Shown: in pieces, positions 49,968-50,873 of the stretch
Numbering within the stretch: position 1 is the first letter of the stretch
Layout of the letters: each line of letters starts with the position of its first letter
Assembly (NCBI GenBank): GCA_964571085.1
Contig: CAZMZT010000001.1
Location: 18,719-82,718 of the forward strand
Length of the DNA stretch: 64,000 nt
Direction: 5' to 3'
From: an uncultured Candidatus Saccharibacteria bacterium
Lineage (GTDB): Bacteria > Patescibacteriota > Minisyncoccia > Phycocordibacterales > UBA9973
The notes under the pieces: model-generated
Seen by the model: the letters and a program-made list of their open reading frames with translations, nothing else
The model's database searches: none
What the model was told of the DNA's origin: nothing
Position numbers and translations under genes: made by a program

Positions 49968-50873
49968 ATGGCAAACAGGCACCTTTCACGTTCAATTGTT
50001 CTTCAAACGCTCTTCGAGTGGGATTTTGCCGCTGAGAAGGACATGACACCTGCGGACATGCTCGACCGCAATATAGAAGAATTTGGACCTGGGCTCGATG
50101 ACGGAACCTTCATGTCAGAGCTACTTCTTGGTATCGTAAAGAAGAAAGCTATTATCGATGAGATCATAGAGAAAGCTGCCCCAGATTGGCCTATAGACAA
50201 GATATCTATAGTCGATCGCAACATCTTGCGTATGGGTCTATATGAGCTCCTATTTGGTGATAGGACCCAAGTCCCACCAAAGGTTGCTATCAATGAATCT
50301 ATCGAGCTTGCTAAGAGTTTTGGTGGAGAGAACTCTAGTAAATTCATCAACGGCGTTCTTGGTGGAGTTTATAAAGAAATAGGCGAGCCAGGTAAAGATG
50401 AAGTTGGTAAAAAGAAAGCAAAGGTTTTCGAGACAGATCCAGCCAAATTCCCAATTGAGAAGAAAGCCGGTGCGGTTATTTACTCTAAAAACGAAGGAGG
50501 AATATATTTTGCCTTTGTTCATGACGTTTTCGGATACTGGACGCTGTCTAAAGGTGGAGTTGAAGAGAACGAAGATGTAGAAACAGGTGCAATTCGTGAA
50601 ATAAAAGAAGAGTTAGGCCTCGATATAAAGATTAAAGAAATGCTAGGCCAAAACGAATATGTGGCTACACACCCTGAGAAAGGGAAAATCCGCAAACAAG
50701 TCACATTCTTCCTTGCTGAAGCACCATATGGCGACCTAGTACTTTATAATAAGTCAGGAGGGCTGGATGATGTAAAATGGTTTCCACTTTCAGAAGTAGC
50801 GGGGCTTAAAATGTATGACAATATGATTCCACTTCTAACAAAAGCTGTGGAGATACTAACGAAAAATGATTAA
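49968..50873 (+). CDS. nusB: NusB antitermination factor fused to a C-terminal Nudix hydrolase domain.
   Basis: The NusB signature '[32 protein letters not shown]' is present. A perfect Nudix box '[23 protein letters not shown]' (GX5EX7REUXEEXGU) is present. Confidence 0.8.
   Translation: [301 protein letters not shown]

What the first reader, a model, noticed from the sequence alone, without database searches (positions are those of the whole stretch)
49968..50873. NusB fused to a Nudix hydrolase
A complete NusB ('[32 protein letters not shown]') is followed in the same ORF by a canonical Nudix box (GX5EX7REUXEEXGU). The gene sits between rpmF and rnc. Coupling an antitermination factor to a pyrophosphohydrolase is unusual. 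Candidate substrates are (p)ppGpp, NAD-caps or dNTP sanitising.
Basis: seen in the sequence. Interest (0 to 1): 0.55.

Follow-up and report, generated by a model that had tools for sequence, protein, structure and literature searches.

The report
NusB with a tethered Nudix domain
This gene really does encode the transcription factor NusB joined by a flexible linker to a Nudix domain that resembles diadenosine-polyphosphate hydrolases; the fusion is standard in a large group of tiny uncultured bacteria, and across that group the nucleotide-binding pocket is kept while the catalytic residues are often lost, though they are intact here.

Summary
Window 49968-50873 (+) is one uninterrupted 301-aa ORF. 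It has a NusB domain above curated cut-offs, a linker of about 25 aa modelled as disordered, and a Nudix domain with an exact Nudix box.

It is not an artefact. 181 distinct relatives at 64-99% identity have the same length and no internal stop, and dN/dS is about 0.09 in both domains.

The fusion is widespread in Patescibacteria of the Paceibacteria/Parcubacteria group, with relatives in at least 497 species-level genomes. It always sits as rpmF, fusion, rnc, SMC-like, and databases call it simply "NusB". A relative with a stand-alone nusB has it in the same slot, so the Nudix part is a C-terminal addition to the resident NusB.

By sequence and fold the Nudix half is closest to Ap4A/ApnA hydrolases, not to MutT, NudC or RppH.

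The main new finding concerns conservation. Across the family the catalytic glutamates are lost many times, while the residues matching the adenine-stacking and phosphate-binding pocket of Ap4A hydrolases stay nearly invariant.

My best reading, which is inferred, is a nucleotide or RNA-5'-end-binding module tethered to the rRNA antitermination factor and still hydrolytic in this genome. I found no paper on it. It is a new variant of known kinds and of moderate interest.

The parts
49968..50873 (+). Complete nusB-Nudix fusion ORF (301 aa plus stop)
   Evidence: Homologs of the same length carrying both Pfam domains.
49977..50381 (+). NusB domain (aa 4-138), seven helices
   Evidence: Pfam PF01029 115.8 bits and TIGR01951 121.5 bits against a cut-off of 88.35. 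Aligns end to end with T. maritima and E. coli NusB. Foldseek TM 0.82-0.86 to 1eyv, 3r2d_B, 3imq_A and 1tzt. Model pLDDT mostly above 90.
50382..50462 (+). Flexible charged linker (aa 139-165), with a GEPGKD motif directly after the last NusB helix
   Evidence: pLDDT below 50 for aa 143-153 and pTM 0.59. Family-wide the linker has a median of 24 aa (range 10-65) and is rich in K/E/D/P/G. A G[EQD]P motif is present in 64 of 110 representatives.
50463..50864 (+). Nudix domain (aa 166-299), ApnA-hydrolase-like alpha/beta/alpha fold
   Evidence: Pfam PF00293 60 bits. Best solved relatives are Ap4A/Ap6A hydrolases and the MutT1 N-terminal domain. Foldseek gives 3i7u TM 0.90, rmsd 2.1.
50553..50621 (+). 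Nudix box [23 protein letters not shown] (aa 196-218), all signature residues present
   Evidence: Regex match. In the close clade R210 is kept in 179/181, E211 in 175/181 and E215 in 181/181. Among divergent fusions E211 is kept in only 23%.
50550..50552 (+). K195, equivalent to human NUDT2 K42 (P1-phosphate ligand), inside the WTLSKG motif
   Evidence: Alignment. Role from PMC4734340. Conserved in 56/61 degenerate-box fusions.
50658..50660 (+). Y231, equivalent to NUDT2 Y82 and C. elegans Y76 (loop-5 Tyr that stacks on adenine and contacts P1)
   Evidence: Conserved in 55/61 degenerate-box fusions, with 4 more carrying F.
50814..50816 (+). Y283, equivalent to NUDT2 F128 and C. elegans Y121 (second adenine-stacking residue). 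Invariant in alignments A1 and A2.
   Evidence: Conserved in 58/61 degenerate-box fusions.
49675..49899 (+). rpmF (ribosomal protein L32), upstream gene of the conserved cluster
   Evidence: Pfam Ribosomal_L32p. Upstream of the fusion in 76/80 related loci.
50866..51561 (+). rnc (RNase III). Its start overlaps the fusion's stop by 8 nt (ATGATTAA).
   Evidence: Pfam Ribonucleas_3_3 and dsrm. Sequence. Downstream of the fusion in 78/80 related loci.
51561..53819 (+). SMC-like ATPase (752 aa), last gene of the conserved cluster. Its start overlaps the rnc stop by 1 nt.
   Evidence: Pfam SMC_N. Present in 76/80 related loci.

Best explanation
SHOWN: The gene encodes a NusB that occupies the ancestral nusB slot (rpmF-nusB-rnc). 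No second NusB was found in the window or in the related flanks. A C-terminal Nudix domain of the ApnA-hydrolase type (Aquifex aq_158 / NUDT2-like) is attached through a flexible charged tether of about 25 residues. This architecture is the norm in Paceibacteria/Parcubacteria. Across the family the adenine-stacking and phosphate-binding pocket is conserved, while the metal-binding glutamates are lost many times. In this genome's clade the catalytic box is intact and under purifying selection.

INFERRED: The NusB half works as elsewhere. It pairs with S10 and binds BoxA on nascent pre-rRNA to nucleate the antitermination/processing complex. The tether holds the Nudix pocket next to that RNA. 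There it binds a nucleoside-5'-polyphosphate group, most plausibly the 5'-terminal (p)ppN or Np4N-capped end of the leader transcript. This gives NusB a second anchor on the RNA. The role would be analogous to the stabilising, non-enzymatic role of SuhB in E. coli.

INFERRED: Where the box is intact, as here, the domain additionally hydrolyses that 5' group to a monophosphate or decaps it. That would couple antitermination to 5'-end-dependent maturation alongside RNase III, whose gene is co-encoded and probably translationally coupled.
For: One-ORF fusion.

Recurrence and integrity: all 120 top hits have both domains. At least 497 species-level genomes encode a relative. 181 distinct sequences have no internal stop. 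Divergent fusions go down to 30-35% identity.

Orthologous slot: rpmF-fusion-rnc-SMC-like in 76-78 of 80 loci. A stand-alone nusB occupies the same slot in L085, and the short contigs L084 and L086 are compatible. There is no second NusB in the window or in 0.62 Mb of related flanks.

Two independent modules: pLDDT 91, linker below 50, pTM 0.59.

ApnA-hydrolase affinity.

Pocket versus catalysis. Residue mapping. Residue roles from PMC4734340.

Many independent losses. A degenerate-box member is still modelled as a confident Nudix fold.

Purifying selection on both domains in this clade, dN/dS about 0.09.

Precedents: NUDT2 hydrolyses pppRNA and RppH removes Np4N caps (PMC9283932). SuhB acts in the rrn antitermination complex independently of its phosphatase activity, and rnc is genetically linked to nusB and suhB (PMC4807359). 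The rrnTAC needs a stabilising subunit and boosts RNase III processing (bioRxiv 10.64898/2026.03.17.712431).
Against: There is no direct evidence that the ligand is an RNA 5' end and not a free nucleotide. The pocket mapping rests on sequence alignment to enzymes only about 25-30% identical. No interdomain or RNA contacts could be modelled. No rRNA leader or BoxA is present in the window, so the geometry between the 5' end and BoxA is untested. Whether these genomes lack SuhB, RppH or other Nudix genes could not be checked. The flexible tether and the absence of a predicted interface are equally compatible with a loose co-expression fusion. The Nudix domain evolves somewhat faster in degenerate-box lineages, which could also reflect partial decay.
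Confidence: 0.35

Rival explanations
1. Effector-sensor model. The Nudix domain binds, and in intact-box lineages also turns over, a free nucleotide signal such as Ap4A/ApnA or ATP. It thereby modulates NusB activity, as the Nudix-like effector domain does in NrtR regulators. No RNA 5' end is involved.
For: The conserved pocket matches the free-Ap4A/ATP binding residues of NUDT2-type enzymes. The NrtR Nudix domain is among the top fold hits, and NrtR is a Nudix-like effector domain fused to a DNA-binding domain (PMC2330246). CF Im25 binds but does not hydrolyse ATP and Ap4A (PMC2425470). Repeated loss of catalysis with retention of the pocket fits a sensor.
Against: No interdomain interface is predicted through which binding could be transmitted (pTM 0.59, disordered linker). 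No ligand is known to regulate NusB. Intact-box lineages keep catalysis under selection, which a pure sensor would not need.
Confidence: 0.25
2. Pure scaffold model. The Nudix fold is a protein-protein docking module of a minimal antitermination complex, for example contacting NusA, RNAP or S4 in place of SuhB. Nucleotide binding is irrelevant.
For: SuhB is an enzyme-fold subunit whose phosphatase activity is not linked to its growth phenotype (PMC4807359), and it integrates into the rrn complex (PMC6614797). The catalytic box is dispensable in many lineages.
Against: The best-conserved Nudix residues are exactly the ligand-pocket residues, not a separate surface patch. A docking role alone would not be expected to preserve them.
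Confidence: 0.15
3. Uncoupled housekeeping fusion. An ordinary ApnA/NTP-clearing Nudix enzyme became fused to NusB during genome streamlining, simply for co-expression. There is no mechanistic link to antitermination.
For: The tether is flexible and no interface is predicted. CPR genomes are compact, with overlapping genes. The closest solved relatives are free-standing Ap4A hydrolases.
Against: The fusion persists down to about 30% identity with no genuine split form. All three apparent stand-alone Nudix relatives were an in-frame stop, a contig end and a scaffold gap. A housekeeping hydrolase that lost its catalytic glutamates would be expected to decay. Instead the domain and its pocket are retained.
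Confidence: 0.14
4. One reading: the domain is a (p)ppGpp hydrolase, a NAD-cap decapping enzyme (NudC-like) or a MutT-type dNTP sanitiser linked to transcription.
For: It is a generic Nudix hydrolase with an intact box. The NCBIfam matches to MutT, NudI and RppH models are weak.
Against: Every such model scores far below its cut-off: MutT 19.2 against 148, RppH 24.2 against 118, MutT1 32.6 against 475. NudC is not listed among the NCBIfam matches at E <= 0.01, and E. coli NudC is only a weak fold match (rank 43, target TM 0.38). The nearest structures and the pocket residues are of the ApnA-hydrolase type.
Confidence: 0.06
5. Artefact: two adjacent genes merged by a sequencing or assembly error.
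For: None found. Isolated public contigs show the opposite kind of error, namely fusions broken by a point stop, a contig end or a scaffold gap.
Against: 181 distinct intact sequences from many independent assemblies. Both Pfam domains are recorded on hundreds of proteins of about 300 aa. dN/dS is about 0.1 across the linker as well.
Confidence: 0.01

Closest known systems
Stand-alone bacterial NusB (E. coli, T. maritima, Aquifex, M. tuberculosis; TIGR01951)
   Same: The N-terminal 138 aa form a full-length NusB by HMM, by end-to-end alignment and by fold. It occupies the same genomic slot as the stand-alone nusB of a related lineage (searches are compatible).
   Different: It carries an extra tether of about 25 aa and a Nudix domain of about 135 aa at the C-terminus. 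S10 and BoxA binding were not tested.
Nudix ApnA hydrolases (Aquifex aq_158 3i7u; human NUDT2 3u53; C. elegans 1kt9; Chlamydia CT771; Thermus Ndx1; Mycobacterium MutT1/Rv2985 N-terminal domain)
   Same: These are the best sequence and fold matches (TM 0.90 to 3i7u). The domain shares the W-T-x-x-K-G motif before the box, and the phosphate-binding Lys and the two adenine-stacking aromatics are conserved.
   Different: Identity is only about 25-30%. No curated equivalog threshold is reached. The domain is fused to NusB. In many family members the catalytic glutamates are replaced. The SHEHQ-type segment of the animal enzymes is GGLDD here.
RsmB/Sun 16S rRNA m5C967 methyltransferase
   Same: It is a known case of a NusB-fold N-terminal domain (PF01029) fused to a C-terminal enzyme that acts on rRNA. 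The query's NusB half hits the N-terminal region of RsmB models.
   Different: The partner domain there is a SAM methyltransferase, not a Nudix domain. The RsmB models score far below their cut-offs (57 against 319). The query's N-terminal half passes the true nusB equivalog.
SuhB in the E. coli rRNA antitermination complex
   Same: This is a functional analogy. SuhB is a phosphatase-fold protein that joins the NusB-dependent complex, stabilises it, and has a role not tied to its catalysis. It is genetically linked to rnc.
   Different: There is no homology (inositol monophosphatase fold against Nudix fold). SuhB is a separate dimeric subunit that binds NusA-AR2, not a domain of NusB. Whether Paceibacteria lack SuhB was not tested.
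NrtR and CF Im25 (NUDT21): non-catalytic Nudix domains
   Same: These are Nudix folds that bind a nucleotide ligand without hydrolysing it. They act in transcription regulation (NrtR, fused to a nucleic-acid-binding domain) or in RNA processing (CF Im25, which binds ATP and Ap4A). NrtR is among the top fold hits.
   Different: The partner domains and ligands differ: ADP-ribose with a wHTH domain in NrtR, and UGUA RNA in CF Im25. The window's protein keeps a complete catalytic box.
Dcp2 mRNA decapping enzyme
   Same: The architecture is analogous: an N-terminal all-helical regulatory domain, a flexible hinge and a C-terminal Nudix domain that acts on RNA 5' ends. Foldseek aligns about 260 columns across both domains.
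   Different: The rmsd is 13-15 A at 14-15% identity, so there is no evidence that the helical domains are homologous. Dcp2 is eukaryotic and specific for the m7G cap.

Membership tests
NusB (TIGR01951 / PF01029) | Profile score above the curated equivalog cut-off over the full domain | tested here: met
   TIGR01951 scores 121.5 bits against 88.35 over aa 4-137. PF01029 scores 115.8 against 23.1.
NusB (TIGR01951 / PF01029) | All-helical NusB fold | tested here: met
   Seven helices with pLDDT mostly above 90. Target TM 0.82-0.86 to 1eyv, 3r2d_B, 3imq_A and 1tzt.
NusB (TIGR01951 / PF01029) | It is the genome's nusB ortholog (same locus as the stand-alone nusB, no paralog) | tested here: inconclusive
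   It lies in the same rpmF-nusB-rnc slot as the stand-alone NusB of L085 (L084 and L086 are compatible). There is no second copy in the 64-kb window or in 0.62 Mb of related flanks. Whole genomes could not be searched.
NusB (TIGR01951 / PF01029) | Heterodimer with S10 (NusE) and binding of BoxA RNA | not testable with these tools
   Only conservation is available. The N-terminal R4, R8 and Q13 and the C-terminal F126, G129, L131 and G132 are at least 89-100% conserved.
Nudix superfamily (PF00293) | Profile above the gathering score and a Nudix box GX5EX7REUXEEXGU | tested here: met
   60 bits against 21.1. Exact box at aa 196-218.
Nudix superfamily (PF00293) | alpha/beta/alpha Nudix fold | tested here: met
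   Model pLDDT above 90 over aa 163-299. 542 PDB matches at E <= 0.001; most of the 50 listed are Nudix proteins and the rest are NusB.
Nudix superfamily (PF00293) | Pyrophosphohydrolase activity | not testable with these tools
   The catalytic residues are intact here and conserved in the close clade. They are absent in many family members.
ApnA (Ap4A/Ap6A) hydrolase group of Nudix enzymes (NUDT2 / aq_158-like) | Closest sequence and structural neighbours are characterised ApnA hydrolases | tested here: met
   By phmmer: 3i7u, 1kt9, 4ilq, 1vc8 and 1f3y at E 1e-5 to 1e-7. By Foldseek: 3i7u TM 0.90, rmsd 2.1.
ApnA (Ap4A/Ap6A) hydrolase group of Nudix enzymes (NUDT2 / aq_158-like) | Substrate-pocket residues: a Lys before the box (P1 phosphate), the loop-5 Tyr and a C-terminal Tyr/Phe that stack on adenine | tested here: met
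   K195 aligns with human K42, Y231 with human Y82 and C. elegans Y76, and Y283 with human F128 and C. elegans Y121. The roles come from PMC4734340. This rests on alignment only, not on a complex structure.
ApnA (Ap4A/Ap6A) hydrolase group of Nudix enzymes (NUDT2 / aq_158-like) | Hydrolysis of ApnA | not testable with these tools
No NCBIfam model named as an ApnA hydrolase is among the matches listed at E <= 0.01.
RppH RNA pyrophosphohydrolase | NCBIfam equivalog score above the cut-off | tested here: not met
   The best RppH model, NF001936, scores 24.2 bits against a cut-off of 118. BdRppH is only a lower-ranked fold hit.
MutT 8-oxo-dGTPase / MutT1 | NCBIfam equivalog score above the cut-off | tested here: not met
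   MutT NF008044 scores 19.2 against 148. MutT1 NF052459 scores 32.6 against 475, and only its N-terminal Nudix part aligns.
NudC NAD(H) pyrophosphatase / NAD-RNA decapping | Match to a NudC model or fold | tested here: not met
   No NudC family appears among the 24 NCBIfam matches at E <= 0.01. E. coli NudC 5iw5 is rank 43 with target TM 0.38.

The most novel reading that the evidence does not exclude
Paceibacteria have built a streamlined rRNA antitermination/processing complex in which NusB carries its own 5'-end reader. The tethered Nudix pocket would clamp the 5'-polyphosphate or Np4N-capped end of the nascent pre-rRNA leader while NusB/S10 holds BoxA. This would replace the stabilising role that SuhB plays in E. 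coli. In lineages with an intact box, such as this one, the domain would also convert that end to a monophosphate and so time 5'-end-dependent maturation with RNase III cleavage. The repeated conversion of the enzyme into a pseudo-enzyme would then be a natural series of separation-of-function mutants.
Probability: 0.2. Interest if true: 0.75.

Novelty: new variant of a known kind. Interest (0 to 1): 0.55.

Why it matters
NusB is a universal and well-studied factor, and it is normally a bare 140-aa protein. A whole class of ultra-small, uncultured bacteria instead makes it with a nucleotide-binding Nudix module. Databases label these proteins simply as NusB, so the extra domain goes unnoticed.

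The family offers a natural experiment. Dozens of lineages have lost the catalytic glutamates but kept the binding pocket. That separates binding from hydrolysis and points to a non-enzymatic core role.

If the ligand is the 5' end of nascent rRNA or an ApnA signal, this would link RNA 5'-end chemistry or alarmone sensing directly to transcription antitermination and RNase III processing. It would also show how reduced genomes replace accessory subunits such as SuhB with fused domains. For annotation, these proteins should be described as NusB/Nudix-domain fusions, and the state of the catalytic box should be recorded.

Tried and rejected
(1) Frameshift or two-gene artefact: rejected.

(2) A genuine split nusB | nudix arrangement among relatives, which would support a Rosetta-stone argument: none was found. 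The three Nudix representatives of stand-alone length are an in-frame TAA in an otherwise fused frame (L081), a contig-end truncation (L082) and a scaffold N-gap (L083).

(3) A second NusB or Nudix in the window or in related flanks: none, apart from one marginal E = 0.001 hit in L022.

(4) RNA context: no rRNA, no tRNA and no Rfam family in the 64-kb window, so no BoxA or leader analysis was possible.

(5) The promoter/terminator scan gave nothing above chance and no terminator inside the rpmF-to-SMC-like cluster.

(6) A fold search against AFDB, meant to look for the architecture outside Patescibacteria, was not possible because the library was unavailable.

(7) Literature: four searches found no paper describing the fusion. 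One search failed on term syntax.

(8) Taxonomic names through cluster look-up gave no organism names. The names came instead.

(9) The parsimony count of box losses rests on a rough NJ tree. It should be read as 'many independent changes', not as an exact number.

(10) dS is near saturation in the dN/dS estimate, so the value of about 0.09 is approximate.
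Full report
OBSERVATION. Window 49968-50873 (+) is a single 301-aa ORF running from an ATG to a TAA. 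Pfam finds NusB at aa 7-136 (115.8 bits, E 2.4e-33) and NUDIX at aa 188-281 (60 bits, E 3.2e-16), both far above their gathering scores. The NCBIfam nusB equivalog TIGR01951 scores 121.5 bits against a cut-off of 88.35. The string [23 protein letters not shown] at aa 196-218 matches the Nudix box GX5EX7REUXEEXGU exactly. The other two frames are full of stops and the window has no N. The neighbours are thrS (-), rpmF, the fusion, rnc and an SMC-like ATPase. The rnc ATG overlaps the fusion's stop by 8 nt, and the SMC-like start overlaps the rnc stop by 1 nt. No terminator-like site separates these genes.

NOT AN ARTEFACT, AND NOT RARE. All 120 best hits among 5.8 billion proteins are 298-307 aa long, at least 80% identical, and carry both Pfam domains. 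The sources name them only 'NusB' or 'N utilization substance protein B', and the named organisms are Patescibacteria, Nomurabacteria or Paceibacterota. In all 80 loci fetched the match is one contiguous segment. Where the flanks allow, the gene order is rpmF, fusion, rnc, SMC-like (L32 in 76, rnc in 78 and SMC-like in 76 of 80). Pooling these gives 181 distinct sequences at 64-99.7% identity. None has an internal stop, and nearly all are 298-305 aa long; two of the three shorter ones come from loci cut by a contig end. Nei-Gojobori dN/dS is about 0.09 for NusB, 0.10 for the linker and 0.095 for Nudix. dS is close to saturation, so these values are approximate.

An exhaustive HMMER search of 1.84 billion 50%-identity representatives returned 163 hits at E < 1e-30. 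They include dozens of full-length fusions down to about 30-35% identity. A search seeded with one such divergent member found 275 further relatives. Nearly all have two domains, and the named lineages include Campbellbacteria, Zambryskibacteria, Taylorbacteria, Pacebacteria, the Parcubacteria group and Minisyncoccia. The architecture is thus old and is the normal form of nusB in this large CPR class.

ORIGIN. Three representatives looked like stand-alone Nudix genes about 50% identical to the C-terminal half. All three turned out to be broken fusions. L081 has a single in-frame TAA where the fusions have Tyr (GAV*KELGEP) and otherwise keeps the same frame. L082 starts at a contig end. L083 has a scaffold N-gap inside the NusB part. 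I found no genuine split arrangement. In contrast, genuine stand-alone NusB proteins of 140-147 aa, about 50% identical to the N-terminal half, follow rpmF directly. In L085 rnc comes next, overlapping the nusB stop. The NusB half therefore occupies the ancestral nusB locus, and the Nudix module is a C-terminal accretion. No second NusB exists in the 64-kb window or in 0.62 Mb of related flanks. Whole genomes could not be searched.

STRUCTURE. AlphaFold2 with a 54-sequence alignment gives a mean pLDDT of 91.2. It shows seven NusB helices (aa 4-138), a low-confidence linker (aa 143-153, pLDDT below 50) and an alpha/beta/alpha Nudix domain (aa 163-299). The pTM of 0.59 fits two independently folded modules with no fixed mutual orientation. 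Across 110 representatives the linker has a median length of 24 aa (range 10-65) and is rich in K, E, D, P and G. Foldseek against the PDB matches the N-terminal half to NusB structures (1eyv, 3r2d_B, 3imq_A, 1tzt; target TM 0.82-0.86). It matches the C-terminal half best to Aquifex Ap4A hydrolase 3i7u (TM 0.90, rmsd 2.1 A, 26% identity). The next hits are Mycobacterium MutT1/Rv2985 ('Nudix diadenosine polyphosphatase'), Thermus Ndx1 Ap6A hydrolase, and the C. elegans, Chlamydia CT771 and human Ap4A hydrolases. Sequence-only searches of the PDB give the same set at E 1e-5 to 1e-7. The NCBIfam models for MutT, MutT1, RppH, NudI and others are hit only far below their cut-offs, and NudC is not listed among the matches at E <= 0.01. 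The Nudix half is therefore a member of the Nudix superfamily and resembles the ApnA-hydrolase group most closely. It does not meet the thresholds of any curated equivalog.

THE UNEXPECTED PATTERN. Among 59 full-length 50%-cluster representatives, only about 11 keep all seven signature residues of the Nudix box. Across 47 divergent fusions E211 is kept in 23%, E214 in 53% and R210 in 60%. In the same set W191, T192, K195, Y231, Y/F247, W271 and Y283 are 85-100% conserved.

In a pooled set of 294 full-length fusions, 179 have an intact REUXEE core plus E202 (120 of these are the query's own close relatives), 54 lack one core residue and 61 are degenerate. In the 61 degenerate sequences position 211 is I, A, V or K. 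Even so, W191 is kept in 55, K195 in 56, Y231 in 55 (with 4 more F), K243 in 51 (with 5 more R), Y247 in 55, W271 in 58, Y283 in 58 and D285 in 54.

I recovered the human NUDT2 and C. elegans Ap4A hydrolase sequences from the PDB and aligned them to the family. The mapping is: K195 = human K42; Y231 = human Y82 and C. elegans Y76; K243 = human K89; Y283 = human F128 and C. elegans Y121; position 285 = human E130. According to PMC4734340, K42 and Y82 hold the P1 phosphate. The adenine ring is stacked between the conserved loop-5 Tyr and a second Tyr/Phe, which is F128 in the human enzyme. E130 appears to hydrogen-bond the adenine amino group. What the whole family conserves is therefore the nucleotide-binding pocket and not the catalytic metal site.

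On a rough NJ tree of 110 representatives thinned to 80% identity, parsimony needs about 25 changes of box state. Shuffled labels need 30 on average, with a minimum of 24. Loss has thus been frequent and independent, and one large sector of the tree is almost entirely degenerate. The Nudix domain outside the box evolves somewhat faster relative to NusB in degenerate pairs (identity ratio 0.59-0.72) than in intact pairs (0.75-0.87), so constraint is relaxed but not lost. A degenerate-box member, P0270 (box GSYDKCEDIDEALGQVMKEKYNL), is modelled just as confidently (pLDDT 92.6). Its Nudix half again matches 3i7u best (TM 0.89, rmsd 1.8). In the window's own clade the box is maintained: R210 in 179/181, E211 in 175/181, E214 in 169/181 and E215 in 181/181.

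MECHANISM. Shown: this is a NusB, probably the resident one, carrying a flexibly tethered ApnA-hydrolase-like Nudix domain. The family-wide constraint falls on an adenine/phosphate pocket, and in this genome the catalytic machinery is also intact.

Inferred from established knowledge: NusB pairs with S10 and binds BoxA in nascent pre-rRNA. In E. coli this complex is short-lived until SuhB joins. SuhB is an inositol-monophosphatase-fold protein whose growth phenotype is not tied to its phosphatase activity. The assembled complex holds the leader at RNAP and boosts co-transcriptional RNase III cleavage, and rnc mutations suppress nusB and suhB defects (PMC4807359; PMC6614797; bioRxiv 10.64898/2026.03.17.712431). 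NUDT2, the archetypal Ap4A hydrolase, also hydrolyses pppRNA and caps. Bacterial RppH converts ppp/ppRNA to pRNA and removes Np4N caps (PMC9283932).

Putting these together, my preferred reading (confidence about 0.35) is as follows. The tether places the Nudix pocket beside the BoxA-bound leader. There it binds the 5'-terminal polyphosphate or Np4N cap as a second anchor. Where the box is intact, as here, it also hydrolyses that group. This would link antitermination to 5'-end-dependent maturation next to the co-encoded RNase III, whose gene is probably translationally coupled.

The main rival (0.25) is a free-ligand sensor for ApnA or ATP, by analogy with NrtR (a Nudix-like effector domain fused to a DNA-binding domain; PMC2330246) and CF Im25 (a Nudix fold that binds but does not hydrolyse ATP and Ap4A; PMC2425470). 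A pure protein-docking role (0.15) does not explain why the pocket residues are the conserved ones. An uncoupled housekeeping fusion (0.14) does not explain why dead enzymes are retained and no split form exists. An artefact is excluded.

COMPARISON AND NOVELTY. Both domains belong to known families. NusB-fold domains fused to an rRNA-acting enzyme are known from RsmB, and the query's NusB half weakly hits the N-terminal part of RsmB models. Non-catalytic Nudix domains are known from NrtR and CF Im25. Dcp2 has an analogous layout of a helical domain followed by a Nudix domain; Foldseek aligns about 260 columns but at rmsd 13-15 A, so this is analogy only.

What I could not find described is the NusB-Nudix combination itself. 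Four literature searches returned nothing relevant, and every database name ignores the Nudix half. The literature library is limited to open-access papers and bioRxiv, and InterPro architectures could not be consulted. I therefore rate this a new variant of known kinds and not categorically new. Interest is moderate at 0.55. A specialist in transcription or in CPR biology would find both the architecture and the pocket-versus-catalysis pattern noteworthy and testable. The mechanism remains inferred, and domain accretion in reduced genomes is not in itself surprising.

Noticed in passing
window 51561-53819 (+): The SMC-like ATPase after rnc is only 752 aa long. It has SMC_N head matches at both ends but no SMC hinge domain match even at E <= 1. 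Typical bacterial SMC proteins are about 1,150-1,200 aa (from my own knowledge). The same ~2.25-kb gene follows rnc in 76 of 80 related loci.
   Followed up: partly
window 53825-55459 (-): This is another two-domain fusion, 544 aa long. It combines a PGA_cap/CapA domain (aa 55-294, 234.9 bits) with a VanY D-Ala-D-Ala carboxypeptidase domain (aa 394-520, 133.3 bits), behind a hydrophobic N-terminus.
   Followed up: partly
window 47867-49633 (-): The threonyl-tRNA synthetase (588 aa) has the tRNA_SAD, class II core and anticodon-binding domains. It has no TGS domain match even at E <= 1.
   Followed up: no
window 1-64000: There are no tRNA genes (ARAGORN) and no Rfam family at gathering threshold anywhere in the 64 kb. 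That is a long stretch for a small genome to go without any recognised RNA gene.
   Followed up: no
window 50866-50873; L085 4404-4423: The fusion's stop and the rnc start overlap by 8 nt (ATGATTAA), which suggests translational coupling of NusB and RNase III. A relative with a stand-alone nusB (L085) also has overlapping nusB and rnc (20 nt). The nusB-rnc link therefore predates the Nudix accretion.
   Followed up: partly
window 50328-50330 (N121): The NusB half has Asn (GGENSSKF) at the position of E. coli D118 (GAEDSHKF). The E. coli NusB101 chain in 3imq, which the entry crystallised with S10, reads GAENSHKF at this position. T. maritima NusB also has Asn here.
   Followed up: no
L081 542-1459; L083 1553-2532: Public contigs contain broken copies of the fusion that gene callers split into separate 'NusB' and 'NUDIX' proteins. 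One has a single in-frame TAA and the other a scaffold N-gap. Such entries could mislead Rosetta-stone style inferences.
   Followed up: yes
window 50382-50399 (aa 139-144, GEPGKD): A short G[EQD]P motif (often GEPGKD) directly after the last NusB helix is present in 64 of 110 family representatives, although the rest of the linker is variable. It could be a conserved hinge or a contact point.
   Followed up: no
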